From contig SCQK01000008.1 in NCBI GenBank assembly GCA_004321885.1, positions 1-44,042 of the forward strand: 44,042 nucleotides of DNA, read 5' to 3'. Made by a program: the position numbers and the translations under genes. The stretch comes from Patescibacteria group bacterium. GTDB lineage: Bacteria; Patescibacteriota; Patescibacteriia; Magasanikbacterales; GWA2-37-8. The notes under the pieces were generated by a model. That model did not search any database. It had not been told where the DNA came from and saw only the letters and a program-made list of their open reading frames with translations. Shown piece after piece: positions 1 through 43,900 of this stretch (position 1 is its first letter; each line of letters starts with the position of its first letter).

Positions 1-1299
1 TACAGTTTTTTTAATCAAATCAACCAAATTTGGGTGATAGTGTTCATATTGATTTTTTCCTTCTTTATTTAAATATATTTTAAACCACTCTGGATGGGAA
101 CTGCGATAGTAATCGGCCATGCCAGCAATTGTTTTGAATCCGGTGTTCATTTCTTTGGCCAACCCGCCGTTAGTCATCCATCCTTCCGGCGCTATTTCAC
201 CTCTTTCATCCGCTTTCTGTTTAATCAAATTTATCAAGTCATGGTGATAATGTTCTGATGGTCTTGCTTTTTTATCTAAGTATATTTTAAACCACTCTGG
301 ATGATATCGGCGATGAATTTGGGCTAAGGATCGTACGAAATTCCAACTTACCCCCAATAAAACAGCCACCCCACCATTAGTCATCCATCCTTCCGGCGCT
401 AATTCACCCCTTTCTTCTATATTTCTTTTTATTAGATTAATTAAATCTGGATGAAAATGCTCGTTTGGTTTATGTGCCTTGTCTAAGTATATTTTAAACC
501 ACTCTGGATGGGAACTGCGATAGTGATCGGCCATGTCAGCAATTGTTTTGCATCCGGTGTTCATTTCTTTGGCCACCTCCCTATTAGTCATCCATCCTTC
601 CGGCGCCAACTCCCTTTCTTCTATATTTCTTTTTATTAGATTAATTAAATCTGGATGAAAATGCTCGCGGGCGCTTTTACTGGATTTTTCTAAATACATT
701 TGAAACCATTCAGGATGAGAATGGCGATGTGGTGCTGCAAGTAATTTTATACTTGAATTACTAATATCTAATATTTCAGCTAATCCATTATTGGTTTTCC
801 AATCATCTGGTGCTGTGGTTCCCCTGTTAGATAGTGTCAGTTTTATTAAGTCGATTAAATTTGGATGGTAATGTTCGGTTGGCTTATTTGATTTGTCTAG
901 GTATGTTTTAAACCATTCTGGGTGCGAATTGCGATAAGCGTTTGCTAAATTATTGATTATTTTTCTTCCGGCTTTAAGTTCTCTCTCTAAACCAAAATTT
1001 GTAAACCAGCCGTTAGGAGGCTGTGGTACCCTTTTGTTTAGGTACTCTCTTATTAGATTTATCAGATTCGGATGTAAATATTCGTGTTTATTCTGTCTAT
1101 TTCCTAGATATATCTTAAACCATTCTGGGTGAGAATCGCGATAAGAATTAGCCGTTGACTCTATGAGATAGGAACTAACATTAAAAGATTTCGCCACCCC
1201 GTTATTAGTCATCCATCCTTCCGGAGCCCTTTCGGCTTTCTCTGTTTTTTCAATTGTTTGTACTACCGGTGTTATACCTCCTTCTGGTTTTCTATTCAT
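1..1299 (-). CDS. Partial (3' end beyond the window) tandem-repeat protein. It has at least 6 copies of a roughly 80-aa repeat (…APEGWMTNxGxAKxxN…YRxSHPEWFKIYLDKxxKPxEHxHPxLIxLIK…). Each repeat contains an HTH-like W-x-T-x-x-x-A motif.
   Basis: A minus-strand ATG at 1299 (the plus strand reads 'cat' at 1297-1299). The frame stays open to position 1. The roughly 240-bp DNA repeats are near-identical, for example 70-190 versus 490-600. The ORF track omitted it because it runs off the window edge. Confidence 0.5.
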   Translation of the reverse strand, partial: MNRKPEGGITPVVQTIEKTEKAERAPEGWMTNNGVAKSFNVSSYLIESTANSYRDSHPEWFKIYLGNRQNKHEYLHPNLINLIREYLNKRVPQPPNGWFTNFGLERELKAGRKIINNLANAYRNSHPEWFKTYLDKSNKPTEHYHPNLIDLIKLTLSNRGTTAPDDWKTNNGLAEILDISNSSIKLLAAPHRHSHPEWFQMYLEKSSKSAREHFHPDLINLIKRNIEERELAPEGWMTNREVAKEMNTGCKTIADMADHYRSSHPEWFKIYLDKAHKPNEHFHPDLINLIKRNIEERGELAPEGWMTNGGVAVLLGVSWNFVRSLAQIHRRYHPEWFKIYLDKKARPSEHYHHDLINLIKQKADERGEIAPEGWMTNGGLAKEMNTGFKTIAGMADYYRSSHPEWFKIYLNKEGKNQYEHYHPNLVDLIKKTV

Positions 1300-1357
1300 A
1301 TCTTAGTGTTTATTATGGCTATATTTTACCTTTTTTATAGCACCGTGTCCATTAATG

Positions 1358-1927: not shown

Positions 1928-1964
1928 AGGGATTCCTCCCCGCCCTGGGCGGGTCGGAATGACA
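1928..1964. repeat. P6-family element (gggattcYtccccgcccYgggcRggtcRgaatgaca).
   Basis: A near-identical copy at 3108-3143 and an inverted partial copy at 28543-28578. Confidence 0.6.
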
Positions 1965-3101: not shown

Positions 3102-3716
3102 ATGAAAGGGATTCTTCCCCGCCCCGGGCAGGTCAGAATGACAATCGGGATGTTGATTTTGCTGATTTTAATCGCGATAGCGAGCGGGGTGTGGTTGTTG
3201 TTGGCAGAACAGAAAGATGCGAATACCCCTCTCTCTGTCTCTCCCCTAAAGGGGGAGAGAAGTTTGGATGCCTCTCCCCCTCCTGACATTCAGGCTCCAC
3301 AGCCCCGACGTAAAGTCGGGGACTATGGAGCCAGCCTCGTTACCCCTCCCCAACCCTCCTCCCGAAACAAGTTCGGGACAAGCTCTTATAAAGTGGAGGG
3401 TACGGCCACGAGCGCGCCGGTCGTTGGCGCGAAAATGCTCATCGGCGGGCAAGAGTTTATTTTTTCCGTCCCCGCGGGCGCCACGGTTTATGACGCCATG
3501 AAACAGCTGGCGGATGAGAAAAAAATATTTTTCAGCGGCAAAGAATACGCGGGCATGGGATTTTTTGCGGAAGAAATAAACGGCTTGCAAAACGGTGACG
3601 GCGGCAAGTATTGGATTTATTATGTCAACGGCCAGCAGGCAAAAGTAGGAGTCTCAAGTTATTTAATTAAATCAAGTGACATAATTTCTTGGGTGTATGA
3701 AAACGAAAAATTTTAG
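3102..3716 (+). CDS. DUF4430-like (transcobalamin-like C-terminal domain) membrane-anchored protein. The start is ambiguous among ATGs at 3102, 3138 and 3150.
   Basis: N-terminal TM (MLILLILIAIASGVWLLLA). The C-terminus (GKYWIYYVNGQQAKVGVSSYLIKSSDIISWVYE) matches the DUF4430 pattern. The linker contains two in-frame palindromic elements. The ATG at 3138 lies inside a P6 element. Confidence 0.55.
   Translation: MKGILPRPGQVRMTIGMLILLILIAIASGVWLLLAEQKDANTPLSVSPLKGERSLDASPPPDIQAPQPRRKVGDYGASLVTPPQPSSRNKFGTSSYKVEGTATSAPVVGAKMLIGGQEFIFSVPAGATVYDAMKQLADEKKIFFSGKEYAGMGFFAEEINGLQNGDGGKYWIYYVNGQQAKVGVSSYLIKSSDIISWVYENEKF
3108..3143. repeat. P6-family element; it overlaps the probable start codon.
   Basis: Compare the copy at 1928-1964. 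Confidence 0.6.
3226..3262. repeat. P1 palindromic element, in-frame inside the CDS (it encodes …PLSVSPLKGERS…).
   Basis: cccctctctctgtctctcccc-taaag-ggggagagaag. Confidence 0.65.
3295..3335. repeat. P2 hairpin element (gctccacagccccgac-gtaaa-gtcggggactatggagc), in-frame inside the CDS (it encodes …APQPRRKVGDYGAS…).
   Basis: A second copy lies at 40567-40606, intergenic. Confidence 0.65.
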
Positions 3717-14888: not shown

Positions 14889-16142
14889 ATGCGCTACTCG
14901 CAACTTTTCGGGAAAACCAGTAAAACTGCGCCGGCCGACGCCGACAGCGTCAATGCCCAGCTCTTAACCAAGGGCGGGTTTATTGCCAAGCAGATGGCCG
15001 GTGTTTATAATTATCTGCCGTTGGGGCTTCGTGTTTTAACAAAAATTCAAAATATCATCCGTGAGGAGATGAACGCAATCGGCGGAAATGAAATACTGAT
15101 GCCCGCGTTGACGTTGGAAGAAAGTTATAAAGAAACCGGAAGAGACGTCGTCTTGGCCGATATACTTTTTAAGAGCGAAGGCCGTGATGGAAGCAAAATG
15201 GTTCTCAATCCAACCTGCGAAGAAGTAATTACGCCGCTGGTAAAAAAATTTGTCTTTTCCCATCGCGATTTGCCGCTGGCGGTCTACCAGATACAAAACA
15301 AGTTTCGCAACGAGCCGCGCGCCAAATCCGGTTTGCTTCGCGGGCGCGAATTCAACATGAAGGATTTGTATTCTTTTCATAAAGACGAAAATGATTTGAA
15401 TGAGTATTATGAAAAAGCCAAGCAAGCGTATTTTAATATCTACAATCGCGTGGGGTTGGGTGATATTACCGTCTTAACTTATGCTTCCGGCGGGGCTTTC
15501 AGCAAATACTCTCATGAGTTTCAAACTTTAACCGATATCGGCGAGGACACGATTTATTTGTGCGAGAAATGCAAAGTGGCCGTAAATAAAGAAATTATTG
15601 ACGAGCAAAAAGCCTGTCCTTCTTGCGGAAATAAAAAATTGATTGAACAAAAAGCTGTTGAAGTCGGTAATATCTTTAAATTGCGGACGAAGTTTTCCGA
15701 TGCTTTTTCATTTTATTATGCTGATGAAAACGGCAAGCAAAAAATAGTTGAAATGGGGACGTATGGTATTGGCCCGTCGCGACTGATGGGCGCGCTGGTG
15801 GAAGTTTTCCACGATGACAAGGGAATAATTTGGCCCGAAGCCGTGGCGCCGTATCAATATCATTTGCTCACTATCGGCAAAGAAGCTGAAGCGGCCAAAG
15901 CCGGCGAGAAGTTATACGCCGATTTGCTGAAAAAAGATACGGAAGTGTTGTATGACGACCGCGACGCTTCGCCCGGCGCCAAACTGGCAGACGCCGACCT
16001 GCTCGGCATCCCCACGCGTTTGGTAATATCAAAAAAGACATTAGAAAAAAATAGTGTGGAAGTGAAGAAAAGAAATGAGAAGGAAGCGAAATTGGTCGCG
16101 CTGTCTGTCATTGCGAGCGAAGCGAAGCAATCCCAAACTTAA
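14889..16142 (+). CDS. proS: Prolyl-tRNA synthetase, compact form of 417 aa with no editing insertion. It carries a Cys4 insert (CEKC…CPSC).
   Basis: N-terminus MRYSQLFGKT…, class II motifs. The last 14 codons are supplied by a P3 repeat element. Confidence 0.85.
   Translation: MRYSQLFGKTSKTAPADADSVNAQLLTKGGFIAKQMAGVYNYLPLGLRVLTKIQNIIREEMNAIGGNEILMPALTLEESYKETGRDVVLADILFKSEGRDGSKMVLNPTCEEVITPLVKKFVFSHRDLPLAVYQIQNKFRNEPRAKSGLLRGREFNMKDLYSFHKDENDLNEYYEKAKQAYFNIYNRVGLGDITVLTYASGGAFSKYSHEFQTLTDIGEDTIYLCEKCKVAVNKEIIDEQKACPSCGNKKLIEQKAVEVGNIFKLRTKFSDAFSFYYADENGKQKIVEMGTYGIGPSRLMGALVEVFHDDKGIIWPEAVAPYQYHLLTIGKEAEAAKAGEKLYADLLKKDTEVLYDDRDASPGAKLADADLLGIPTRLVISKKTLEKNSVEVKKRNEKEAKLVALSVIASEAKQSQT
16098..16137. 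repeat. P3-family half element (gtcattgcgagcgaagcgaagcaatccc) forming the 3' end of proS.
   Basis: It matches the left arms at 17556, 17650, 18522, 21402 and 40884. Confidence 0.65.
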
Positions 16143-16158
16143 TGTGTTAAACCCTCCT

Positions 16159-17553
16159 ATGTCCGAACTCAAACCACCCTCCACGGAAGAATTGGCAAAA
16201 ATGCAAGAATTGGCAGAAACGCTTAGAAAGACGGTTGAGGAAGAGCGGCAGAAACCCCCGCAAAGGTATAGAAAGTTCAGCCTGGCGGAAAAAAATGCTC
16301 AAAGCGAAGAGGACAAGAAAACGGGAGTCGAGGATTTTTTTAGCAATCCGGCTTTGAAGATATCGGAAACGTCGGATAACGATCCTGATGCCGACAAAAT
16401 TTTGTCCTCTCTATCTCTTCTCCCCGAGTCCTTCCAGGTGCTTTGGGACAAAATGGGCGGCTCGTCACCCGTCAACGCCGGTTCCAGCGAACGGAAGCAA
16501 ATAGAATTCTTGGAATTTATCGACGAAATCAAGGATTCCCACTTTTTATCCCTCTTCCAGCACTTTTTAGATAGTAACACCTGGTCTCTCCAGGAATACG
16601 CCCAAAAAATTACCTCGTTTTCTCAAAATCGAGCCATCACCCTCACAACCAAAGAAGCCGAGCAGGCCACGATTTTTCAAACCACCAATGAAGACCAAAC
16701 ATTTCAAACCAAATCCAAAAAAGAACAGCAAGAAATTATAGACCAGGCCAAAACCGAGGCCCAGGAAGCCGCGGAACTGGGCATGGAAATGCTCCTTATC
16801 GCCGCGGACAAAAAAGCCCAGGGGATGGTTGAAAAAGTCATCAGCAACCAAATCAATATTGACACCAAAGAAGGAAAAGAAGAATTTATCAAACAATGGC
16901 AAGAACAATGCCCCAACACCCCCATGCCGGCCGTGCCGGGCAAGAGCTGGGGTTGGAATTACTTGTCTTGGCTGAAAAACAATAAGGTTGTCAGCAACCT
17001 GGAACCGGAAGCAGATCAAGTAGACGAGCCTCAGCCAATCAAACCCCGATTCCATCGGCACCAAACACTCTGGGTGGACAAATGGCAAGAAGAAGATTAC
17101 AACGCGCCCCAAGCACAGGCCTCGCATACCTCCACTCTCGTCAAGCAATTCTTTCCGGAAAGAAACAGCGATAGAGTGGTTGAAATCAACAGAGAAGCAA
17201 TAGATCAAGCCCTGTGGGAAATTCCCATGCGTTGGGGAGGGCAACCCCCTCGCCGGATAAAATCCAAGGATCATGAAGAGTTTTTGCGTCAACATGGCTT
17301 CAACCCCGACGAATACGAACTGCGCCTCATAATCCACGACGAATACGCTCGCGGAGCCGGTGTCAAAAACTGGGGACAAAAAAATTTCTGGACCCATTTT
17401 GACCATTATTTTCTTGGGGACGACGGCGAGCGCGACGGTCTGAGTGGCGGGCGCCGCGACTCTGGCGGGCCTTCCCATGTGGACGCCTACTGGCGTGACG
17501 ATACGGATGGCTATCTCGGTGTCCGTCTGGTTCTCTCGCGCATACAAAAGTAA
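16159..17553 (+). CDS. Hypothetical protein of about 465 aa; acidic, with coiled-coil in the N-terminal half and no recognised domain.
   Basis: Long clean ORF; the 326-aa minus-strand ORF across it is shadow. The start is uncertain between ATGs at 16159 and 16201; there is no obvious SD. Confidence 0.45.
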   Translation: MSELKPPSTEELAKMQELAETLRKTVEEERQKPPQRYRKFSLAEKNAQSEEDKKTGVEDFFSNPALKISETSDNDPDADKILSSLSLLPESFQVLWDKMGGSSPVNAGSSERKQIEFLEFIDEIKDSHFLSLFQHFLDSNTWSLQEYAQKITSFSQNRAITLTTKEAEQATIFQTTNEDQTFQTKSKKEQQEIIDQAKTEAQEAAELGMEMLLIAADKKAQGMVEKVISNQINIDTKEGKEEFIKQWQEQCPNTPMPAVPGKSWGWNYLSWLKNNKVVSNLEPEADQVDEPQPIKPRFHRHQTLWVDKWQEEDYNAPQAQASHTSTLVKQFFPERNSDRVVEINREAIDQALWEIPMRWGGQPPRRIKSKDHEEFLRQHGFNPDEYELRLIIHDEYARGAGVKNWGQKNFWTHFDHYFLGDDGERDGLSGGRRDSGGPSHVDAYWRDDTDGYLGVRLVLSRIQK

Positions 17554-17555
17554 CT

Positions 17556-17642
17556 GTCATTGCGAGCGAGTCGCAGACGAGCGCGGCAATCCCATTCGTG
17601 TTTGGGGTTGCTTCACTCCACTTCGTTCCGTTCGCAATGACA
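17556..17642. repeat. Complete P3 MITE-like palindrome (gtcattgcgag…cgcggcaatccc / ggggttgcttc…cgcaatgac).
   Basis: Solo copy with both arms present. Confidence 0.65.
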
Positions 17643-17649
17643 ATCGTCT

Positions 17650-18056
17650 GTCATTGCGAGGTCGCCTGCGGCGACCGAAGCAATCCCATACAATCAAGTA
17701 TGCCGAAACGCAAGCAGTATTATGTTTACATAATGACCAACAAGAATAATACTGTTTTGTATACCGGTGTTACCAACAGTTTAGTCCGTAGAGCCTACGA
17801 ACACAAAAGCAAGTTCAGTTTTTATGAAAGTTTTACAAAAAAATACAATATCAATAAACTCGTCTATTACGAATGTTTTGATAATGTGAATAACGCGATT
17901 ACCAGAGAAAAACAGATAAAAGCCGGTTCGCGAAAAAAGAAAATAGATCTAATCAATAAAATGAATCCTATTTGGCGGGATTTGTATGGAGAACTTTACC
18001 CTGATTAGGGATGGGATTGCTTCGTCGGTCGCCTGCGGCGACCTCCTCGCAATGAC
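17650..18056 (+). mobile_element. GIY-YIG nuclease gene enclosed by P3-type terminal inverted repeats: IR-L 17650-17687, CDS 17700-18008, IR-R 18013-18056.
   Basis: IR-L is gtcattgcgag-gtcgcctgcggcgac-cgaagcaatccc. IR-R is gggattgcttcg…gtcgcctgcggcgacc…ctcgcaatgac, its near-exact reverse complement, including the shared core gtcgcctgcggcgac. Confidence 0.5.
17700..18008 (+). CDS. Small GIY-YIG nuclease-superfamily protein (YhbQ/UPF0213-like, about 102 aa).
   Basis: YYVYIMTNKNNTVLYTGVTNSLVRRAYEH, the GIY-YIG core. The ORF-track start at 17598 lies inside repeat DNA; the ATG at 17700 is taken as the start. Confidence 0.7.
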   Translation: MPKRKQYYVYIMTNKNNTVLYTGVTNSLVRRAYEHKSKFSFYESFTKKYNINKLVYYECFDNVNNAITREKQIKAGSRKKKIDLINKMNPIWRDLYGELYPD

Positions 18057-18061
18057 AGTAA

Positions 18062-18099
18062 AAAAATCCCCTCCGACGTAACGTCGGAGGGGATTTTGT
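18062..18099. terminator. Bidirectional terminator hairpin (aaatcccctccgacgtaacgtcggaggggattt), flanked by A7 and T4.
   Basis: It lies between the GIY-YIG gene (plus) and the small membrane-protein gene (minus). Confidence 0.5.
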
Positions 18100-18105
18100 T
18101 TATAG

Positions 18106-18510
18106 TTAAACCGTTTCTTTTTTGCGGATTATTCGCCAGTGAAAGGCGAAGAGCGGGATGCCGACGACAATCATTGATATGTCGCGCACCAGGTCGCGCT
18201 GGCGCTGGGCGGCGCGGTTTTCTTCAGCGTTCTTTTTTTCTTCATTTATTTGGGCGCATTCTTTTTCACCGGGTGAGCTGGTAACAATCTTTTTGATTTC
18301 GTCTTTGGGTGGGTTGCTTTCACAACCAGCCAAATGTGGCACATAGTAGTCAAATTTATCGGCTTTGGTGAAAACATACGTGCGCAGAAGCGTGTTTATA
18401 ATGTCGGCCGTGGAAAAAACCATCATCATCAGGGCGACGAAAGAAACCAGATAAAGATAAATATTTTTAATGACGTTGCCTTTACCCGGCGTTGTGTTTG
18501 GCGTGTCCAT
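18106..18510 (-). CDS. Small membrane protein of 134 aa with two TM segments.
   Basis: Hydrophobic N-terminal and C-terminal segments. It is flanked on both sides by P3 elements. Confidence 0.45.
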   Translation of the reverse strand: MDTPNTTPGKGNVIKNIYLYLVSFVALMMMVFSTADIINTLLRTYVFTKADKFDYYVPHLAGCESNPPKDEIKKIVTSSPGEKECAQINEEKKNAEENRAAQRQRDLVRDISMIVVGIPLFAFHWRIIRKKETV

Positions 18511-18521
18511 ATATCTTGTTT

Positions 18522-18608
18522 GTCATTGCGAGGAGGTCTGCAGACCGACGCGGCAATCCCAATGTTGAAAGGGATTGCTTCGGTCGCCACAGGCGACCTC
18601 GCAATGAC
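18522..18608. repeat. P3 MITE-like palindrome, an 'empty' copy with no cargo.
   Basis: It lies exactly between the trpS stop and the start of the 18106..18510 gene. Confidence 0.65.
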
Positions 18609-18611
18609 AGA

Positions 18612-19625
18612 TTAAAGTCCTATTAAATTTCTAACCCCTTCCATTGTTTTGTCCGCCACCTTTTGCGCTTTGGCCGCGCCGTCTCTCATTATCTTGTCCA
18701 GCTTGGCCGGATTTTTTAACAGCTCGGCGCGTTTGGCGCGGAAATCGGCGAAATAATTGGCAATCGCTTTGGCCAATTCGTCTTTCAGCTCACCGTATCT
18801 TATTGTGCCGTCCTTTTCCGCTTTGACAAATCTTTCGTAGCTGGATTCCCCCGTACTTAGTCGGGGGAATGACAGACCGGATTCGAACTTTTGCAGGAGC
18901 ATCAACAGGTTTATCACCCCGGGCGCTTGGCCGCCGCCTTCGGTGGCCGTCACGGCGCGTTTGATTTTTTGTTCTATCACGCCCGGCTCGTCAGCCATCT
19001 CAATCACGTGGTCGGCGCCCAAACTTTTGCTCATTTTTTTATTGGGTTCCAGCAAGCTCATTACTTTGGGCGTTTCGGTGAGCAGATGTTTTGTTTCCGG
19101 AAAATACGCCCCGTATTTTTTATTGAACCAGCGAGCAATGTCGCGGGTCAGCTCTACGTGTTGGATTTGGTCTTGGCCCACCGGCACCATTTCGCCTTTG
19201 TACATTAATATATCCGCCGCCTGCAAAATCGGATAGGTAAAAAGTCCGGCCGTGGACATTTTAAGTTGCGCTGTTTTGTCTTTATATTGAGTCATGCGCT
19301 CCAGTTCGCTCATCGGGGTGAGACAGTTCAAAATCCAGGCCAGCTCGGCGTGGCCGGCGATACGCGATTGAAAATAAAAAGTCGTTTTCTTCGGGTCAAT
19401 GCCGGCGGCCAAAAGTTCAGCGGCCGTTGTCCGCGTTTGCGCGCGCAGTTCGTCGGGTGTCATTTTTCCAGAAAGCGAATGCAGGTCGGCGATAAAAATA
19501 TACATTTCATACTTGCCCGAGTTTTGTAAATCCACCCAATTTTTTACCGCGCCCAAATAATTGCCGATATGCAGGTTGCCCGTGGGCTGAATGCCCGAGA
19601 CGATGATGTGTTTGTGATTGGACAT
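18612..19625 (-). CDS. trpS: Tryptophanyl-tRNA synthetase.
   Basis: HIGNYLG (HIGH-class) and KMSKS motifs. An in-frame P2-type hairpin at 18848-18871 encodes …SFPRLSTGES…. Confidence 0.9.
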   Translation of the reverse strand: MSNHKHIIVSGIQPTGNLHIGNYLGAVKNWVDLQNSGKYEMYIFIADLHSLSGKMTPDELRAQTRTTAAELLAAGIDPKKTTFYFQSRIAGHAELAWILNCLTPMSELERMTQYKDKTAQLKMSTAGLFTYPILQAADILMYKGEMVPVGQDQIQHVELTRDIARWFNKKYGAYFPETKHLLTETPKVMSLLEPNKKMSKSLGADHVIEMADEPGVIEQKIKRAVTATEGGGQAPGVINLLMLLQKFESGLSFPRLSTGESSYERFVKAEKDGTIRYGELKDELAKAIANYFADFRAKRAELLKNPAKLDKIMRDGAAKAQKVADKTMEGVRNLIGL

Positions 19626-19664: not shown

Positions 19665-20135
19665 TTAGTAATGGTATTTACGTCCGCCGTTTATCATCAG
19701 CGCGCGGTAAATTTGCTCCAGCAAAAACACCCGGCACATTTGGTGCGTGAAAGTCAGGGGGGACAAAGAAAGCTCTAAATCGGCTTTTTGCCGGACGGAA
19801 GAATGTAGGCCGAGCGGTCCGCCGATAATAAAGGTGATATTTTTTCGCGTCTGTGTCTGGGAAAGCTGTTTTGCCAATTCGGTGGAAGAAAATTGTTTGC
19901 CGTGTTCGTCCAGGGCGATGATAAAATCATCCGTTTTCGGCAGGGCGTTTAAAATTTTGTCCGCTTCTTTTTGTTTTATCGTTTCCGGGCTGTCTTTTTC
20001 GCCAAAGGCCTCTTCTTTCAGTTCGCGGATTTCAATTTTCGTAAAAGGTTTCAACCGTTTTAAATATTCGGCTTCGGCCTCGCGCCAATACGATTCTTTC
20101 AGCTTGCCCAGGCAGATGATGTTAGTTTTTGGCAT
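19665..20135 (-). CDS. rlmH: 23S rRNA m3Psi1915 methyltransferase RlmH (SPOUT family).
   Basis: Collinear with RlmH (…IIGGPLGL…LTFTHQMCRVFLLEQIYRA…). Confidence 0.8.
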   Translation of the reverse strand: MPKTNIICLGKLKESYWREAEAEYLKRLKPFTKIEIRELKEEAFGEKDSPETIKQKEADKILNALPKTDDFIIALDEHGKQFSSTELAKQLSQTQTRKNITFIIGGPLGLHSSVRQKADLELSLSPLTFTHQMCRVFLLEQIYRALMINGGRKYHY

Positions 20136-21345
20136 ACGATTGCCATTCTTTTTTTAATTTCAAAAATTTGTCTTCGGCGATGGCCGCGCGGATTTGTTTC
20201 ATCAAATCCAAAAAGAAATGCAGATTGTGAATGGTGGCCAGGCGCATGGCCGAGAGCTCCCCGGCGTTAAAAAGATGGCGCAAGTAGGCGCGGGAATAAT
20301 GTTGGCAGGTGTGACAGGCGCAGTTTTTGTCTATCGGCTTGGCGTCGCTAGCGAACCGCGAGTTGGTGATGTTTATGCGATACCCCTCCCCAGCCCTCCC
20401 CTTATTAAGGGGAGGGAGAAAGAGCATGCCGTGGCGGGCCAAGCGGGTGGGGGCCACGCAGTCAAACATGTCTATGCCGCGTTCCACCACTTCAAAAATG
20501 TCCAAAGGCGACAGCCCCAGACCCATGCTGTAGTGGGGCTTGTCGGGCGGAAGCAGGGGGTAGACCCAATCCAAAATTTCTTTGGTCGCGGACATGTTGT
20601 AGCCGATAGATTCGCCGCCGACGGCGATGCCGTCAAAATCCATGGCGGAAATATGGCGCGCTGATTCTTCACGCAAGTCGCGGTGATTGGAGCCCTGGAC
20701 GATGCCGAAGAGATGTTGCCGATACCCCTCCCTCACCCTCCCCTTATAAAGGGGAGGGGATGATAGATGATATTCCAAACATCTTTTCGCCCATCTGTGC
20801 GTGCGTTCCATTGCTTCGCGCGCATACTTAGCATCAACATTGTCCGGCGCGCATTCGTCAAAGGCCATGATAATGTCCGCGTCCAGTTTGTGCTGGATTT
20901 TTATTGACGACTCGGGCGTGAAGCGATGCGTGGAGCCGTCTATGTGGCTTTTGAAGGTGACACCGTCCTTGTCTATTTTCGCCAAACGCTCTTTGCGAAA
21001 CTCCACCCCTTGTCCCTCCCCTAATAGGGGAGGAATTTGTTTGCCCAAACTGAAAACCTGGAATCCGCCGCTGTCGGTAAGCATTGGTCTGTCCCAATTC
21101 ATGAATTTGTGCAAGCCGCCCAGTTTGGCGACAATATCTTCGCCCGGGCGTAGATGCAAATGGTAAGTGTTTCCTAAAATTATTTGCGCGTTCAAATCGC
21201 GCAAATCAAAAGAATCCAGGGATTTTACGGTCGCTTGCGTGCCCACGGGCATGAAAGACGGTGTTTCAATGTCGCCGTGCTCGGTATGAATTACGCCCGT
21301 CCGCGCTCGGCTGTTTTTGTCTTGATGAAACGTTTCAAAAAACAT
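20122..21345 (-). CDS. tgt: Queuine tRNA-ribosyltransferase (tRNA-guanine transglycosylase). It carries three in-frame palindromic-element insertions.
   Basis: Full-length Tgt similarity including the zinc site CxCxxC…H (CACHTCQHYSRAYLRHL). The insertions encode [25 protein letters not shown] and PPLLGEGQG. Confidence 0.9.
   Translation of the reverse strand: MFFETFHQDKNSRARTGVIHTEHGDIETPSFMPVGTQATVKSLDSFDLRDLNAQIILGNTYHLHLRPGEDIVAKLGGLHKFMNWDRPMLTDSGGFQVFSLGKQIPPLLGEGQGVEFRKERLAKIDKDGVTFKSHIDGSTHRFTPESSIKIQHKLDADIIMAFDECAPDNVDAKYAREAMERTHRWAKRCLEYHLSSPPLYKGRVREGYRQHLFGIVQGSNHRDLREESARHISAMDFDGIAVGGESIGYNMSATKEILDWVYPLLPPDKPHYSMGLGLSPLDIFEVVERGIDMFDCVAPTRLARHGMLFLPPLNKGRAGEGYRINITNSRFASDAKPIDKNCACHTCQHYSRAYLRHLFNAGELSAMRLATIHNLHFFLDLMKQIRAAIAEDKFLKLKKEWQSYAKN
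20384..20421. repeat. P1 palindromic element, in-frame in tgt.
   Basis: cccctccccagccctcccc-ttattaa-ggggagggagaaag. Confidence 0.75.
20725..20770. repeat. P1 palindromic element, in-frame in tgt.
   Basis: cccctccctcaccctcccc-ttataaa-ggggagggga. Confidence 0.75.
21003..21034. repeat. P1 palindromic element, in-frame in tgt.
   Basis: ccctcccc-taata-ggggagg. Confidence 0.7.
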
Positions 21346-21401
21346 ACTTTAACTAAATGGTAAGGTATTTTGCAGGTTATGGCAAGACATGGTATGCTTT
21401 T

Positions 21402-21489
21402 GTCATTGCGAGGACCCGCCCGGGGCGGGGACGAAGCAATCCCATTCATAAGCGCGAGAGATTGCTTCGGCCTACGGCCTCGCAATGAC
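21402..21489. repeat. P3 MITE-like palindrome in the tgt/uvrD divergent intergenic region.
   Basis: gtcattgcgag…cgaagcaatccc … gattgcttcgg…ctcgcaatgac. Confidence 0.65.
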
Positions 21490-21494
21490 AACCT

Positions 21495-23711
21495 GTGTAT
21501 ATGATTGATTTTTCCAGCGACCTCAATGACGAACAATTAAATGTCGTTCTTAATGGCGACGGCCCGTGCTTGGTGTTGGCCGGAGCCGGCAGCGGCAAGA
21601 CGCGCGCCATTGTTTACCGTGCGGCTTATCTTTTGGAACAGGGCGTGAAGCCGGAAAATATTTTGCTCGTGACTTTTACCAACAAGGCGGCAGGGGAGAT
21701 GAAAGAAAGGGTGCGCGGACTCACCGGCAACGAGGGCTTGCCCTGGGCCGGTACTTTTCACAGCATCGGCAACAGAATACTGCGCCACCACGCCATGGCT
21801 TTGGGTTACATGTCCAATTTTACGATTTTGGATTCCGATGACAGCGAGTCATTGATAAAAATTTGCGCGAAAGACTCCCACCCCCCCTCAATCCCCCCCT
21901 CGGGCAGGGGGGGAGGATGGACCGGTGGTAAATTTCCCTCGGCCGGTAATTTGCAGGCGATAATCAGCTTTTCTCGCAACGCGGAAATGGCGCTTGCTGA
22001 AGTGTTGGAAACGCGCTGGCCCCAGTATGAGATGTGGGCCGACCCCCTGGCGGAAATCGCCAAGGAATACGAAAAAAGAAAATTACAGGCCAACGCCATG
22101 GATTTTGACGACTTGCTGGTGAACTTTTCGCGTTTGCTAAACGACCCGAAGATTTTGAAAAAATATTCCGGGCAGTTTCAATATATTCTGGTTGACGAGT
22201 ATCAGGATACGAATAAAATTCAGGCGTCCATCGTGAAAAAATTGGCCACCGAGCACGGAAATATTTTGGTCGTTGGCGACGACGCGCAAAGCATTTATTC
22301 TTTCCGCGCGGCCGACATAGAAAACATCTTGCGTTTTGAAAAAGATTTTCCCAAAGCGAAAATTTTCAAGCTGGAAACCAATTACCGCAGTAGCCAGGAA
22401 ATTTTGGACGTGGCCAACAACGTCATCGCCAACAATCCAAAACAGATAAAAAAGGAATTACATACCCCTCCCCAACCCTCCCCTTATAAAGGGGAGGGAG
22501 ATAGCGTTTCCTCCCCCTTTATAAGGGGGAGGTTAGGTGGGGGTGTCAAGCCCGAACTGCATCCGAAAATTGACCAAAGCGACGAGGCAAATTTCGTGGC
22601 CGAGAAAATCGCTTCGCTGATTCGCGGCGGAGTGGAACCGACCGAGCTGGCCGTGCTTTTCCGCGCGGCGCATCACAGCCAGCAATTGGAGCTTGAACTA
22701 ATGCGCATAGGCATTGATTACGATTATCGCGGCGGCCTGCGCTTTTTTGAACGCTCGCACGTGAAAGACGCCCTGGCCTACTTGCGCATACTGAACAATC
22801 TGGCCGACACGACCGCCTGGCTGCGCGTGCTTTTGTTTGAAGACGGCATCGGTCCGGTGGCGGCCGGCAAAATCGTGGATTATATAAGGAAGGTGGAAAA
22901 CGTGGAAGAAGTGGCCAAGGCCGGAGAGGTTTTGGGCGACAAAGCGCAGACGGGCTGGAATAATTTTTTACAAATTTGGAACAGCTTGCTGAATGTGGGG
23001 CCGGGCAGTCCGGCGCAACTGGTGGAGGCGATTTTGGCTTCGCCTTACCGCGATCGGCTGGAAGACGATTTTGGCAACGGCAACCAGCGGGCCGAAGATT
23101 TGAAACAGCTGGCGATTTTCGCGCGCAAATACGAAAAGCTGGATGACTTTTTATCCGAGGCGGCTTTGCAAGAGGCGTTTAGCATGCAGAGGAAAAAAGA
23201 AAGCGCCAGCAAAGCGCACGAGGGAAAAATTGTTCTTTCTACTATACATCAGGCCAAGGGGCTGGAGTGGTCCGGCGTGTTTGTGATTAATTTGCTGGAC
23301 GGGCAGTTTCCCAACGAACGCGCTTTGCGGGAAAACGGCGGGCTGGAAGAAGAGCGGCGCTTGTTTTATGTGGCGGTTACCCGCGCCAAAAAATATTTGT
23401 ATTTGTCGTATCCGCTGGCCGGCCCGGCCCGAGGCGGACAAAGCGGGGGCTGGGGAGACAGCGCGTCCGCGCCGAGCTCGTTTTTGGGTGAAATCAGTCC
23501 GGATTTGCTGGAAGATAGTTCGCTATTGCTTAAGCCGAGTTCGGTTTTTGATTTCTCTTCCCTTGCTAAGGGGAGAGATAGTGAGGGGTCGATCACATAC
23601 GTGGACGACCCGGATGCCGAGACCCGCCCCCACACCAAAGATTTTGGTGTGGGGGCCCGTCCCTTCCGCTTCAAACCCGGCAGTTTTTTGCGCGACGTGG
23701 GAGATTTATAA
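21495..23711 (+). CDS. uvrD: UvrD/PcrA/Rep-family ATP-dependent DNA helicase. It carries four in-frame palindromic-element insertions.
   Basis: Walker A GAGSGKT and helicase motifs across the length. The start is a GTG at 21495 or an ATG at 21501. Confidence 0.9.
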   Translation: MYMIDFSSDLNDEQLNVVLNGDGPCLVLAGAGSGKTRAIVYRAAYLLEQGVKPENILLVTFTNKAAGEMKERVRGLTGNEGLPWAGTFHSIGNRILRHHAMALGYMSNFTILDSDDSESLIKICAKDSHPPSIPPSGRGGGWTGGKFPSAGNLQAIISFSRNAEMALAEVLETRWPQYEMWADPLAEIAKEYEKRKLQANAMDFDDLLVNFSRLLNDPKILKKYSGQFQYILVDEYQDTNKIQASIVKKLATEHGNILVVGDDAQSIYSFRAADIENILRFEKDFPKAKIFKLETNYRSSQEILDVANNVIANNPKQIKKELHTPPQPSPYKGEGDSVSSPFIRGRLGGGVKPELHPKIDQSDEANFVAEKIASLIRGGVEPTELAVLFRAAHHSQQLELELMRIGIDYDYRGGLRFFERSHVKDALAYLRILNNLADTTAWLRVLLFEDGIGPVAAGKIVDYIRKVENVEEVAKAGEVLGDKAQTGWNNFLQIWNSLLNVGPGSPAQLVEAILASPYRDRLEDDFGNGNQRAEDLKQLAIFARKYEKLDDFLSEAALQEAFSMQRKKESASKAHEGKIVLSTIHQAKGLEWSGVFVINLLDGQFPNERALRENGGLEEERRLFYVAVTRAKKYLYLSYPLAGPARGGQSGGWGDSASAPSSFLGEISPDLLEDSSLLLKPSSVFDFSSLAKGRDSEGSITYVDDPDAETRPHTKDFGVGARPFRFKPGSFLRDVGDL
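21877..21920. repeat. P1-variant palindrome, in-frame in uvrD (it encodes SHPPSIPPSGRGGGW).
   Basis: cccaccccccctcaatcccccc-tcgggca-gggggggagg. Confidence 0.65.
22465..22545. repeat. Two tandem P1 elements in opposite orientation, in-frame in uvrD (they encode PSPYKGEGDSVSSPFIRGRLGGGV).
   Basis: Copy a at 22465-22502 and copy b at 22509-22545. Confidence 0.75.
23555..23590. repeat. P1 element (CTCTC variant), in-frame near the uvrD C-terminus (it encodes SLAKGRDSEGS).
   Basis: ctcttccc-ttgctaa-ggggagag…gagggg. Confidence 0.65.
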
Positions 23712-28479: not shown

Positions 28480-28691
28480 TTAAGCTGGAAAATCTGAAAA
28501 AAGGGCTGAATAAGCACAAAGGGCTTAACAAACAGGGTGTCATTCTGAACGAAGTGAAGAATCCCTGTCGCACATTTCAATACAAATGGCGGATGACAGA
28601 ACCTGTGGAGGAGAGACCACGGGCGGACACAAAGCCAATTTTCTAAAAGCAATAGGGCCTCTCTCCAATTTGGATAGAGGCCCTTTTCGTT
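28480..28691 (+). ncRNA. Candidate small RNA of about 210 nt, bounded by the consensus promoter and an intrinsic terminator. Identity unknown.
   Basis: No ORF. It contains a P6-like internal hairpin (cagggtgtcattctgaacgaagtgaagaatccctg). Confidence 0.3.
28655..28691 (+). terminator. Intrinsic terminator gggcctctctcc-aatttg-gatagaggccc followed by ttttcgtt.
   Basis: An 11-12-bp stem with one mismatch, followed by a T-tract. Confidence 0.55.
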
Positions 28692-29100: not shown

Positions 29101-29125
29101 GTCATCCTGAATTTATTTCAGGATC
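29101..29125. repeat. P5 hairpin (GTCATCCTGAA…TTCAGGATC).
   Basis: Second copy at 37111-37135. Confidence 0.5.
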
Positions 29126-29166
29126 TCCGTTCGGTCGGAGGCGGGGCAGACGATCCCATATCATTT

Positions 29167-37001: not shown

Positions 37002-37245
37002 ATATTTGTCAATACTTAACAAAGATATAAACATGGCAGTTCTTGACACTTTTTCCCCCTTTCTATATACTATTGCCAAGAACGTTACCCCGAGTAATCG
37101 GGGCACCCGAGATCCTGAAACAAGTTCAGGATGACAGGGAACTCGTGGCTGAGCTTCATCGTTCAGCTTTTTGTTAACGACAGAAATTTAAGAATTAAAT
37201 TTCTTGTCAGTTAACAATCCGCCTTTGGCGGATATTCATTATTTA

Positions 37246-40457: not shown

Positions 40458-40606
40458 CCCCGACGTTACGTCGGGGTCATCCTGACCCTGCACCGCTCTG
40501 GTGCAGGGGAAGGATTCCTTTCTCATTCGCTGGCTCCATACTTTGTGTGGAGCCAGTTTGCGTTATGGCTCCACAGCCCCGACTTGGTCGGGGACTATGG
40601 AGCCAG
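40457..40606. repeat. Cluster of P2-type hairpins after fusA: gaccccgacgttacgtcggggtc (40457-40479), ctgcaccgctctggtgcagg, ctggctccatactttgtgtggagccag, and gctccacagccccgac-ttg-gtcggggactatggagc (40567-40606).
   Basis: Four consecutive inverted repeats. Confidence 0.55.
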
Positions 40607-40862: not shown

Positions 40863-40979
40863 GTCATTCCGAAGACGCGTTTTGTCATTGCGAGCGAAGC
40901 GAAGCAATCCCATGCGTATTTAAGAAATGCCCTGCTTTTTTGCAAGGGATTGCTTCGTCGCTTCGCTCCTCGCAATGAC
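40863..40979. repeat. P3 MITE-like palindrome (with an extra partial left arm) in the 5' leader of the surface-protein gene. It ends 1 nt before the ATG.
   Basis: gtcattgcgagcgaagcgaagcaatccc…gggattgcttcgtcgcttcgctcctcgcaatgac. Confidence 0.65.
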
Positions 40980-43900
40980 ATGTTGCGCATGCTCCACTCC
41001 CGCCACTTTCGCGCGGCCATTGCCTCGCTGGTCATCATCACCGTCTTGCTCAACATTTTCAAACCCACGCCGCAGAATACGGCCCAAGCCGCCACCTATA
41101 CCTTCACCCAAACATCGTGGAGCGGCGGGGCGAGCACCACGGCCGTGGCCGCGCACGCCAGCGACCAGAGCGGGTGGAGTAAGTATGATTCCTCGTCAAA
41201 TGTTGCAGTTTCAGGCAACATAAGTCTTTCCTTAAATTCAAACCTTACTTTTATTGACAGTGGTTCACCAACAAGTACCGGCCTTGCCACTGGAGGCGGA
41301 TTTACGAATGGTGTTAATTCAAATACATTGGTTCAGGGTGGCGTGTCTACACAAGCTGATATAAAATTAGCCACTACATCAGAAACCCAGGTAAATGCCT
41401 GGTCTAATTTGTCCAATTTACCCTTTACATGCGGCCAAGGCGGATGTTCTGCTTTCAAGAGCGATGATTTTCCTGATTTTATCTATATTCATCGCGGCAC
41501 CAACACAGATTTTTCAAAATACAATATTTATGACAACACATGGACTTCTTTAAATGCCGCCCCAGTAACTTATTTGGTTGGAGCAATCACGTATCTAACA
41601 GGCGACTCCATCGCTGGCCAGAATTTCGTCAATGGAGATAATCTCTATTTTAGAGGTCAGAGTGGATATTCAAATCTTTGGTACAAGTATAATATTACGG
41701 GAAACGCATGGTCAGCATTACAAGCGCCTCCGGCCATACCAAATTGCGTTCAACAGTCAAAAAATTCAGATGTTATTCTTGCTTCAAATGGCACGACCGG
41801 ATTCTACAGCTATTCGGTTGCTCAAAATTCATGGTCAAATTTAACAGCCGTGCCTTCAACTTTAGGGGGCGGCTGCTGGATTTTTAGAGGCGGTTTAGAT
41901 AATAATGTTTTTGTGTTGGGAAGTAACGGAGCCCTTTTTCGGTACTCCATTGGTGGTAATTCTTGGGTTACCTTAAATACTGCCGGCGGAACAGTCAAAG
42001 GTGCTGTTAGGAATGATTCTGATGATGAAATATATGCTAGCACTTGGGTTGTTGATTTGAAAAAATATTCAATATCTTCTGGCCAATGGACTATTTTAGA
42101 TAATGGCACAGTTGCCGCCTATGATATTTGGCGTCACGGGAAAAGTGATAATGTGTATAGATTTGCTAGACACGTCACTAACGATCCGAATACAAAAAAG
42201 TATTCCCTAGCAAATAATTCATGGGCGAATCTTGGCACCGATAATATATGGAATCCGTTTATAAAAAATCATTCGGATTCCGAAATATATAGAATAAATG
42301 GCGGATATACTAGTAATGGATTTGGAAAATTTGTGTTAAGCAATCAGGCTTTTCAATCCTCTGGTAATTTTACTTCTGCCTCCATTGACGCCAAGGGCGC
42401 TACATATGATGGTTTTTTTTGGTCACCGACAAATACGCCGTCTCCGGCTGGCGCGGGCGCGCTTAAATTTCAAGTCGCGGCTAATAATGATAACTCCACT
42501 TGGAATTTCATTGGACCCGACGGCACTGGTTCAACTTATTTCACAGTTACTTCGTCCTCTTTGCCTGTGTCTGTAAATAATAATAGATATTTTAAATATA
42601 AAGCATATTTACAAACTGCCTCCACCACAGTTTCTCCGGCTTTGTATAATGTAACCTTAAATTATTCAACATATTCAACTTCGGGGAATGTTACCTCTTC
42701 TATTTACGACTCCGCTGACCCTACTAATGTAATAGCCAATATCAAATGGACCACCACCACCCAGCCCACGGGCACAGCCATCAAGTTTCAGCTCCGTTCA
42801 GCTTCCACCACAGCGCTTCTTTCTTCGGCCACTTTCGTTGGTCCGGACGGTACGGCCAATACATATTTTACCGACCCCACCGGCGCGGAAAACACCACCA
42901 CGACCATGCGCGACGGGGTGGGCGATAGATATTTTCAATATAAGGTCTTTCTTACTTCTGACGGTACCAACACCCCCACCCTTGACCGTGTCCAGGTTAC
43001 CTATGTGGTTAATGCCAGCCCAGAAGTGCAAAATGTGACGGCCGTGGCCAACTCCGACGGCACTGTTAGCATTTCATACCAAGTTCGCGATACTGACACG
43101 GATTCCGGCTCTCCGGCCAATCAATACAAAATCACGCCTTCGTTTCAGTACTGCCCGTCCGGCACCGGCTGTCAAAGTATCACCGCTCTCTCGGCCTCTT
43201 CCACAGAAATAAAGGCAGTAGCCACCTCAACCTGGAATACCTACTACGCCACCTGGACACCGGCCACGGACTTCCCAAGCACCTGGGACAGCAATGCTAT
43301 GGTAAAAGTTATTGCCAACGACGGCGAGGCCGCCAACAACACCGGTTCGGCTCTCTCGGCCGGCTTTACTTTGGATACCGGTAGTCCGTCATCAAACAGC
43401 GTCACAATTTACGCTTCTTCCACACCTGCCGCGCTCATTTTGAATTCATCAGACACGTCCACCCTTTATATGAAAATATCTCTTAATTCCGATCTGTCTG
43501 GCGCCAGTTGGCAGGCCTACACTTCCACCGCGACGATTTCTCTGGCCACCAATCCGGATACTGTCTACGTCCGTTTCAAAGATGCTTACAATAATCAGTC
43601 GTCAATTCTGTCCGTTGCCACCCCGGAATCGCCGGCCAGTTTTATGGTGCAGGATAACAGCAATATCCTAAACGGCGCCACTGACTACCGCCTGTTTTTG
43701 GCCTGGAAAAAAGTGTCTGCTCCAGACCCGGGATTCGCCAATTACAAACTTTATCGTTCCACTTCCACCGAGTCTTCCAGTTTTTCCCTACTAAGCACAA
43801 TTTACGACATCAACACCAATTATTATTTTGACACCAGCACACCTTACGATACCACGCTTTATTATAAAGTCCTCACGACCGACAACAGCGGCAATGTTTC

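What the first reader, a model, noticed from the sequence alone, without database searches (positions are those of the whole stretch)
16098..16142. The last 14 codons and the stop of prolyl-tRNA synthetase are supplied by a repeat element
The ProS ORF runs into the P3 half-element ctgtcattgcgagcgaagcgaagcaatcccaaacttaa, giving the tail …LSVIASEAKQSQT*. The same DNA is used as repeat arms elsewhere. This is a case of a mobile repeat remodelling the C-terminus of an essential enzyme.
Basis: seen in the sequence. Interest (0 to 1): 0.5.

Follow-up and report, generated by a model that had tools for sequence, protein, structure and literature searches.

The report
Hairpin repeat forms ProRS tail
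One 30-base copy of a widespread hairpin repeat (the kind recognised by Ssn GIY-YIG single-strand nucleases) sits in frame at the very end of the prolyl-tRNA synthetase gene of a Patescibacteria genome and encodes about ten of its last eleven residues, replacing only a short, poorly conserved tail, so it is a tidy but fairly ordinary case of selfish DNA inside a gene.

Summary
proS (14889..16142, +, 417 aa) runs through a repeat unit at 16106-16135. That unit is 30/30 identical to 40883-40912 and belongs to a family with at least 12 units in the window. Only 9-10 codons (V407-Q416) lie in the repeat. A404-L405-S406 align with orthologues and look native. T417 and the TAA lie in non-repeated DNA.

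None of 119 homologous proteins or 80 related loci carrying the proS 3' end has this tail or a repeat there. Their tails are 2-19 variable residues after the equivalent position.

The repeat is an NTS/SRM-like hairpin (GTCATT...AATCC), the motif class cut by Ssn GIY-YIG ssDNA nucleases (Chenal 2025). A 102-aa GIY-YIG gene at 17700..18008 is flanked by inverted copies. In an unrelated metagenome contig the identical 27-mer flanks a GIY-YIG homologue.

The catalytic and anticodon-binding domains are intact. The C-terminal Tyr check applies to archaeal-type ProRS, not this bacterial type.

The same genome has an in-frame SRM inside trpS, and a second repeat family in frame in tgt and uvrD.

Verdict: a lineage-specific, probably neutral capture of a repeat; a new member of a known kind (RPE/MITE-like in-frame insertions). 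Whether it was a simple 30-nt insertion or the edge of a 2.5-kb rearrangement is unresolved.

The parts
14889..16142 (+). proS CDS, 417 aa: bacterial-type ProRS without an editing (INS) domain, carrying a CxxC...CxxC insert
   Evidence: 100% identical to an NCBI protein annotated as prolyl-tRNA synthetase, Patescibacteria group bacterium
16098..16105 (+). Native codons A404-L405 and the first two bases of S406. They align with the orthologue motif LV.L[S] and are not part of the repeat.
   Evidence: no conservation upstream of position -1 of the repeat
16106..16135 (+). Solo SRM/NTS-like repeat unit TGTCATTGCGAGCGAAGCGAAGCAATCCCA (30 nt, in frame). It encodes V407-Q416 (VIASEAKQSQ). The outer stem is ATTGC/GCAAT and the inner stem is degenerate.
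16136..16142 (+). Last base of the Q416 codon, then T417 and the TAA stop, in non-repeated DNA. The stop is not supplied by the repeat.
   Evidence: flanks after ...AATCCCA differ between copies
40883..40912 (+). Identical twin of the proS unit. It is intergenic and is the left arm of an inverted doublet with 40946-40979(-).
17700..18008 (+). 102-aa single-domain GIY-YIG nuclease gene (Ssn-like), AT-richer than its surroundings
17650..17687 (+). SRM unit 12 nt upstream of the GIY-YIG start codon
18013..18056 (-). SRM unit in inverted orientation, 4 nt downstream of the GIY-YIG stop codon
17554..17643 (.). Inverted SRM doublet that starts immediately after the stop of the 464-aa ORF
   Evidence: (I8)
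18520..18611 (.). Inverted SRM doublet abutting the trpS stop codon (18612-18614 on the - strand)
16159..17553 (+). 464-aa ORF with no family match. It lies between proS and the repeat cluster and is absent from 81 related proS loci.
18612..19625 (-). trpS CDS. It is adjacent to proS in three relatives (tail to tail in L001 and L081, same strand in L030). Here it lies 2.47 kb away.
18841..18874 (-). Canonical SRM (matches the published search pattern), in frame inside trpS. It encodes LSFPRLSTGESS and coincides with an insertion of about 10 aa.

Best explanation
A single unit of an NTS/SRM-like hairpin repeat was acquired at the extreme 3' end of proS in this Patescibacteria lineage. This is the repeat class that flanks, and is cut as ssDNA by, Ssn-family GIY-YIG nucleases. 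Five of the six reading frames of the unit are open. Translation therefore runs through it and ends at the first stop in the flanking DNA. The result is ...ALS + VIASEAKQSQ + T*, in place of the ordinary short, variable tail (...LS[DE]hLKKh*).

The repeat-encoded peptide occupies the position of the small terminal helix after the last strand of the anticodon-binding domain. That region tolerates any length from 2 to 19 residues in orthologues. The change is therefore most likely neutral, a by-product of repeat spread in a genome with almost no intergenic space.

Shown: the identity and copy number of the repeat, its absence from all orthologues, an intact enzyme upstream, and the association of the same 27-mer with GIY-YIG genes.

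Inferred: that it arrived by insertion, most simply a 30-nt in-frame insertion between S406 and a native T-stop, and that the local Ssn-like nuclease is involved in its spread.
For: - Exact 27/30-nt identity with a second copy, with zero matches in shuffles.
- A family of about 15 units sharing the GTCATT...AATCC frame.
- At least 120 metagenome stretches carry the identical 27-mer, with conservation ending at -1/+1.
- The published NTS is CGTCATTCCCGCGMAVGCGGGAATCYRG, and the published architecture is SRM-ssnA-SRM.
- The window's GIY-YIG gene is flanked by inverted units 12 nt before its start codon and 4 nt after its stop codon.
- In L150 a GIY-YIG homologue (50% identity) is flanked by the identical 27-mer in inverted orientation.
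- None of 119 homologues or 80 related loci has the tail or the repeat.
- Domain matches and PDB alignments reach about residue 405.
- The AF2 model shows a strand at 401-404, a helix at 405-411, and pLDDT below 50 at 413-417.
- The window protein keeps every column that is invariant in the 61-sequence alignment it heads.
- There are precedents in the same genome: an in-frame SRM in trpS and in-frame copies of a second repeat family in tgt and uvrD.
- Two other real genes end inside the same 27-mer, L088 and L099.
Against: - No empty-site relative exists. The closest ProRS is 79% identical, so insertion is inferred from phylogenetic absence only.
- The proS unit fails the published strict SRM search pattern.
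- Its hairpin is weak: -2.7 kcal/mol, no better than shuffles.
- Precise excision of the 30 nt would leave ...ALST*, one residue shorter than any of the 199 orthologue tails examined.
- Membership of the GIY-YIG protein in cd10448 could not be tested.
- The mechanism of SRM spread is unknown, even in the literature.
- The contig is a single MAG assembly with no independent copy.
Confidence: 0.78

Rival explanations
1. The proS unit is not a simple insertion. It is the left boundary of a 2.47-kb block (16106-18609) that was inserted or rearranged between an ancestrally adjacent, tail-to-tail proS and trpS. The block is bounded by inverted SRM units. It carries the 464-aa ORF, the GIY-YIG gene and a DUF5671 gene. 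On this reading the native proS tail was displaced to the far side.
For: - In L001 and L081 proS and trpS are convergent neighbours; in L001 their stops overlap.
- In the window the outermost units are 16106-16135(+) and 18571-18608(-), in inverted orientation.
- Joining the flanks at symmetric boundaries (16105|18610) gives ...ALSIKVLLNF*, 413 aa. Its length and pattern resemble orthologue tails such as EELLNKF* and DEIFKLF* (my reading of the sequence).
- The 464-aa ORF is next to proS in none of 81 related loci.
- The DUF5671 gene lies upstream of proS in L001, so this neighbourhood has been rearranged.
Against: - Only 3 of 81 related loci have trpS next to proS, and all are at most 79% identical.
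- The block contains internal SRM units and a gene native to the neighbourhood, so it is not a clean cargo element.
- Its GC content matches the surroundings, except for the GIY-YIG gene.
- Any of the three frames to the right of 18609 gives a short tail, so the IKVLLNF* match is weak evidence.
- Simple in-frame insertions of single units demonstrably occur in this genome (trpS, tgt, uvrD).
Confidence: 0.22
2. The repeat copies in and beside essential genes have been co-opted. For example, they could act as Ssn cleavage sites on incoming ssDNA that limit replacement of these genes by transformation, as proposed for NTS-gene-NTS in Neisseria. The proS tail would then be maintained by selection.
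For: - Chenal et al. show that NTS/Ssn modulates transformation and that NTS copies cluster around particular genes.
- Here SRM units sit in or at the ends of proS and trpS, with a dense cluster between them.
Against:
- The proS unit has a degenerate hairpin.
- In Neisseria only 2% of NTS copies lie inside genes.
- A second, unrelated repeat family is also in frame in other genes, which points to general tolerance rather than a specific function.
Confidence: 0.07
3. Assembly artefact: the MAG contig was misjoined at the short repeat, so the tail does not exist in the organism.
For: There is only one contig on record for this protein, and repeats are classic misassembly points.
Against: - The shared stretch is only 30 nt, shorter than the usual final assembler k-mers.
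- Gene order on a larger scale is as expected, with trpS 2.5 kb downstream as in relatives.
- The join leaves an intact ORF, and the next gene starts 16 nt after the stop.
Confidence: 0.04

Closest known systems
NTS / Ssn-related motifs (SRM) and the Ssn GIY-YIG ssDNA nuclease family (Chenal et al., Nat Commun 2025, PMC11893778)
   Same: - An oriented hairpin repeat with a 5' GTCATT and a 3' AATCC frame around a palindrome.
- Tens of copies per 44 kb.
- A small single-domain GIY-YIG gene flanked on both sides by inverted units, in the window and in L150.
- One unit in the window (18841-18874) matches the published search pattern exactly.
   Different: - The proS-type units use ATTGCGAG...CGAAGCAAT instead of ATTCC...GGAAT and fail the published degenerate pattern.
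- The host is Patescibacteria, which the text of the paper does not mention.
- Units here are often inverted doublets, and some lie inside coding sequence. In N. meningitidis only 2% do.
- Nuclease activity and cd10448 membership were not tested.
Rickettsia palindromic elements (RPE) and other intragenic MITEs (reviewed in PMC10969869)
   Same: Palindromic repeats inserted in frame into housekeeping genes add peptide segments at positions that the fold tolerates. Several genes in one reduced genome are affected (proS, trpS, tgt, uvrD here).
   Different: - RPEs are about 100-150 bp and encode conserved peptides of 30-50 aa. This unit is 30 nt and encodes 10 aa.
- There is no sequence similarity.
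- No TIR/TSD structure was found.
- The associated enzyme here is a GIY-YIG nuclease.
REP/REPIN-RAYT systems (Nunvar 2010; Bertels & Rainey 2011)
   Same: Short hairpin units occur singly or as inverted doublets. They usually lie just after stop codons, and a single enzyme gene is flanked by inverted units.
   Different: The flanked gene is a GIY-YIG nuclease, not a Y1 (HUH) transposase. There is no GTAG/CGTC head. REPs are by definition extragenic.

Membership tests
SRM/NTS repeats (Chenal 2025) | Matches the degenerate search sequence HGTCWYN(0-2)YYVSBRHN(0-5)WNVSBRGN(0-2)RNCYNB | tested here: not met
   the proS unit and all GTCATTGCGAG-type units fail. Only 18841-18874(-) inside trpS matches (1 hit, against 0.15 expected).
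SRM/NTS repeats (Chenal 2025) | A 20-50 nt imperfect palindrome able to form a hairpin, with an oriented non-palindromic 5' flank | tested here: inconclusive
   Sister units fold strongly (-11.2 kcal/mol, z -3.3; -10.8, z -5.4). The proS unit keeps only the 5-bp outer stem (-2.7 kcal/mol, z 0). The GTCATT 5' flank is present in all units.
SRM/NTS repeats (Chenal 2025) | Units flank a small GIY-YIG (ssnA-like) gene on both sides | tested here: met
   Window: 17650-17687(+) and 18013-18056(-) flank ORF 17700..18008. L150: the identical 27-mer at 635-661(+) and 976-1002(-) flanks a homologue with 50% identity.
SRM/NTS repeats (Chenal 2025) | Strong over-representation compared with shuffled sequence | tested here: met
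   10 copies of GTCATTGCGAG; 24 matches to the loose pattern against 5.5 in simulations; the exact 27-mer occurs twice against 0.
SRM/NTS repeats (Chenal 2025) | Bound and cleaved as ssDNA by the cognate Ssn nuclease | not testable with these tools
   This needs a biochemical assay.
Ssn nuclease family (cd10448) | Single-domain GIY-YIG protein shorter than 150 aa | tested here: met
   PF01541 scores 7e-14 over residues 6-81 of 102 aa, with no other domain.
Ssn nuclease family (cd10448) | Top CDD hit is cd10448, or blastp to N. meningitidis SsnA gives E<1e-10 | not testable with these tools
   Neither CDD nor the SsnA sequence is available here. There is no NCBIfam hit. The closest PDB entries are UPF0213 proteins at E 0.005.
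Bacterial-type ProRS | Class II core plus a C-terminal HGTP anticodon-binding domain; equivalog model score above its cut-off | tested here: met
   PF00587 scores 4e-30, PF03129 scores 2e-16 (residues 327-411), and TIGR00409 scores 425.6 against a cut-off of 306.7.
Archaeal/eukaryote-type ProRS (C-terminal Zn domain ending in a conserved Tyr) | TIGR00408 score above its cut-off; extra C-terminal domain after the anticodon-binding domain | tested here: not met
TIGR00408 scores 159.7 against a cut-off of 437. The protein ends 12 residues after the anticodon-binding domain. That the Tyr feature belongs to this type is my own knowledge of the structural literature.
MITE / RPE | Terminal inverted repeats with a target-site duplication; length about 50-500 bp | tested here: not met
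   The unit is 30 nt, and no duplication flanks it. It behaves like an in-frame RPE but is not one.
REP/REPIN-RAYT | Associated Y1 (HUH) transposase gene flanked by REPs | tested here: not met
   The flanked gene is GIY-YIG. The rest of the window was not searched exhaustively for a Y1 transposase.

The most novel reading that the evidence does not exclude
In Patescibacteria, Ssn-type hairpin repeats (SRMs), and a second palindromic family, behave like Rickettsia RPEs. They colonise coding sequences of essential genes in frame (proS tail, a trpS loop, tgt, uvrD). Ssn/SRM systems would then be an unrecognised source of peptide insertions in ultra-compact genomes. In addition, the 2.47-kb segment between proS and trpS, bounded by inverted SRMs, may have been moved as a unit, which would be the first hint that SRM pairs can mobilise cargo.
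Probability: 0.15. Interest if true: 0.55.

Novelty: new member of a known kind. Interest (0 to 1): 0.3.

Why it matters
The event itself probably changes nothing important in ProRS. Its value is as a clean, datable example of three things.

(i) NTS/SRM-like repeats and their GIY-YIG partner occur in Patescibacteria, in a sequence variant that the published search pattern misses.

(ii) In genomes with almost no intergenic DNA, such repeats end up inside genes. They are tolerated at termini and surface loops, as shown long ago for Rickettsia RPEs.

(iii) For annotators, tails such as VIASEAKQS, SLRAKRSNP or GLLRFARND on otherwise conserved proteins are repeat read-through, not biology of the protein family.

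Tried and rejected
- Rfam scan of the whole window: only a tRNA was found.
- Literature search for the box sequence: only unrelated primers.
- The strict SRM regex does not match the proS unit.
- I looked for an empty site or a closer relative. The protein database tops out at 79% identity. The genome scan gave at most 69% (plus L066 at 72% over residues 1-247 only). No second contig carries the exact protein.
- I tried to recover the ancestral tail. Three candidates (ALST*, ALSNLMC*, ALSIKVLLNF*) all look acceptable, so none is claimed.
- Terminator scan: nothing at the proS 3' end, so the unit is not an obvious terminator.
- GC profile: the block downstream of proS is not compositionally foreign, except for the GIY-YIG gene.
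- Long ORFs ending in the 27-mer in GC-rich metagenome contigs were mostly spurious Arg-rich frames. Only L088 and L099 were accepted, after a Pfam check.
- My first tblastn of the downstream ORF used a wrong frame. It was repeated correctly.
- The supplements of the Ssn paper are not held, so I could not compare with the SsnA sequence.

Full report
**What is there.** The window is a 44,042-bp MAG contig of a 'Patescibacteria group bacterium'. Its ProRS is 100% identical to an NCBI protein of 417 aa whose longest recorded contig is 44,042 nt. The ORF 14889..16142 (+) ends ...KKRNEKEAKLVALSVIASEAKQSQT*. It is a bacterial-type ProRS. PF00587 covers residues 94-306 and PF03129 covers 327-411. TIGR00409 scores 425.6 against a cut-off of 306.7, while the archaeal-type model TIGR00408 scores only 159.7 against 437. 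Alignments to solved bacterial ProRS structures run to about residue 405.

**The repeat.** GTCATTGCGAGCGAAGCGAAGCAATCC at 16107-16133 recurs exactly at 40884-40910, against none in 100 shuffles. With flanks, the identity is 30/30 for 16106-16135 versus 40883-40912. The box GTCATTGCGAG occurs ten times in the window. About 15 units share the frame yGTCATT[GC][CT]GA - variable stem-loop - [GCA]AATCC(C)(A). Most units form inverted doublets with a spacer of 8-36 nt, at 17554-17643, 18520-18611, 21400-21491 and 40883-40980. Several doublets begin immediately after a stop codon. The proS unit is solo.

**Repeat boundaries.** In 92 copies, conservation ends one base upstream (C 85%) and one base downstream (A 96%). 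The repeat in proS therefore spans 16106/7 to 16133/5. It encodes V407 to S415/Q416, which is 9-10 codons and not 14. A404-L405-S406 are native, and T417 and the TAA lie in unshared DNA.

**What kind of repeat.** A literature search led to Chenal et al. 2025 (PMC11893778). The Neisseria NTS is CGTCATTCCCGCGMAVGCGGGAATCYRG. It belongs to a broad class of 'Ssn-related motifs' (SRM): 20-50-nt hairpins that flank small single-domain GIY-YIG genes (ssnA), whose products cleave the motif as ssDNA. The authors themselves compare the architecture to IS elements and to REP/RAYT.

The window fits this description. A 102-aa GIY-YIG ORF at 17700..18008 (PF01541, 7e-14) has inverted units 12 nt before its start codon and 4 nt after its stop codon. 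In the unrelated contig L150, a homologue with 50% identity is flanked by the identical proS-type 27-mer in inverted orientation.

There are caveats. The published degenerate pattern matches only one site in the window, 18841-18874(-). It does not match the GTCATTGCGAG-type units. The proS unit has lost the inner stem, so its hairpin is no better than shuffles (-2.7 kcal/mol), whereas sister units fold at -9 to -11 kcal/mol. I therefore call it an SRM-like variant, not a demonstrated SRM. I could not test whether the nuclease belongs to cd10448.

**Comparison with orthologues.** The 119 best homologues are 67-79% identical and mostly 406-415 aa long. They end ...EAKLV.L[SDE] followed by 2-13 variable residues, typically [DE]hLKKh. 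The 80 related loci that carry the proS 3' end (79 species-representative genome loci plus the locus of the closest relative, L081) give the same picture, with tails of 3-19 residues after the S406-equivalent position. None has a repeat box near the proS stop, and boxes are rare in those loci overall. The tail is thus specific to this lineage.

**State of the enzyme.** The window protein keeps every column that is invariant in the 61-sequence alignment it heads. An AlphaFold model built from that alignment has a mean pLDDT of 73.6, with values in the 80s across the C-terminal domain. It places the last beta-strand at 401-404 and a short helix at 405-411, and confidence drops below 50 for 413-417. 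The repeat-encoded peptide therefore substitutes for the small, non-conserved terminal helix. The enzyme proper is untouched.

**How it got there.** Two scenarios remain open.

(A) A simple in-frame 30-nt insertion between S406 and a native T-stop. Excision leaves ...ALST*, 407 aa. Removing 29 or 32 nt instead gives ...ALSNLMC*.

(B) The unit is the edge of a larger event. In relatives L001 and L081, proS and trpS are convergent neighbours, and in L001 their stops overlap. In the window they are separated by 2.47 kb. That segment holds an unknown 464-aa ORF, SRM units, the GIY-YIG gene and a DUF5671 gene that lies upstream of proS in L001. It is bounded by inverted units. Joining its outer flanks gives ...ALSIKVLLNF*, 413 aa, which resembles orthologue tails.

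Neither scenario can be excluded. No relative is closer than 79% identity. GC content does not mark the block as foreign. I favour A because single-unit in-frame insertions are demonstrably frequent in this genome, as described next. Misassembly is unlikely: the shared stretch is only 30 nt and the larger-scale synteny with trpS is preserved.

**The phenomenon is general.** In trpS (18612..19625, -) the canonical SRM at 18841-18874 is in frame. It encodes LSFPRLSTGESS and coincides with an insertion of about 10 aa relative to three orthologues. Relative to solved TrpRS structures the window protein is about 12 aa longer there.

A second palindromic family (...CTCCCCTTATAAAGGGGAG...) lies in frame at three sites in tgt and two sites in a UvrD/PcrA helicase. 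Each site coincides with a gap in the alignment to solved structures.

Elsewhere, a CN-hydrolase (L099) and a P-loop kinase-like protein (L088) end ...SSLRAKRSNP* inside the same 27-mer, read in another frame.

In-frame fusion of intragenic MITEs and RPEs with host ORFs is an established phenomenon (PMC10969869).

**Verdict.** This is a lineage-specific and probably neutral capture of an SRM-like repeat as the last ten or so residues of ProRS, and it is a new member of a known kind. Interest is modest at 0.3. The main added value is the link to the Ssn/SRM system in Patescibacteria and the evidence that such repeats colonise coding sequence in this genome.

Noticed in passing
window 18841-18874 (-), inside trpS 18612..19625: A canonical SRM (TGTCATTCCCCCGACTAAGTACGGGGGAATCCAG; strong hairpin, z -5.4) lies in frame in TrpRS. 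It encodes LSFPRLSTGESS and coincides with an insertion of about 10 aa relative to orthologues.
   Followed up: partly
window 20380-20422, 20722-20764, 21000-21037 (tgt, 20122..21345 -); 21878-21920, 22462-22544 (uvrD/pcrA-like, 21495..23711 +): A second palindromic repeat family (ACCCCTCCCC..CTCCCCTTATAAAGGGGAGGG, at least 11 copies in the window) sits in frame inside tRNA-guanine transglycosylase and a UvrD-type helicase. Each copy coincides with a gap in the alignment to solved structures.
   Followed up: partly
window 17700-18008 (+) with 17650-17687 and 18013-18056: A 102-aa GIY-YIG nuclease gene (GC about 0.38-0.41, against 0.47-0.55 in the windows on either side) is flanked by inverted SRM-like units. 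This is an SRM-ssn-SRM cassette in a Patescibacteria genome.
   Followed up: partly
L150 635-1002 (Ga0209006_10167177): A GIY-YIG homologue (50% identity) is flanked by the exact proS-type 27-mer in inverted orientation, 24 nt upstream of the ATG and 1 nt after the TGA.
   Followed up: yes
L088 219-776 and L099 1-822: A P-loop kinase-like protein (AAA_33) and a carbon-nitrogen hydrolase from unrelated metagenomes both end ...SSLRAKRSNP* inside the same 27-mer, read in a different frame.
   Followed up: partly
L095 3909-4903 (Ga0207055_1035): Eight copies of the 27-mer, seven of them at a strict 121-nt period: a tandem array of SRM doublets with nearly identical spacers.
   Followed up: no
window 16075-17553 (+): The mechanical ORF that contains the 464-aa downstream gene starts at ATG 16075. 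It reads the proS repeat in a second frame (..SLRAKRSNP..) with no stop before the likely start at 16159. A gene caller could therefore annotate a 68-nt overlap with proS. The 464-aa protein has no Pfam or NCBIfam match and no homologue in the related proS loci or metagenome loci held.
   Followed up: partly
window 1-1340: A tandem repeat with a 207-nt period (4-5 copies, 62-100% identity to the reference copies) at the start of the contig. It may encode a repeated 69-aa protein module.
   Followed up: no
window 18063-18097: A perfect 16-bp palindromic hairpin with T-runs on both strands (a bidirectional terminator-like site) lies between the GIY-YIG cassette and the DUF5671 gene.
   Followed up: no
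window 1929-1963(-), 3108-3142(-), 28539-28565(+), 29101-29127(+), 37109-37137(-), 40476-40518(+): Further sub-families of the same repeat frame (GTCATTCCGA.., GTCATTCTGA.., GTCATCCTGA..) have different inner stems. Several SRM 'dialects' therefore coexist in one genome.
   Followed up: no
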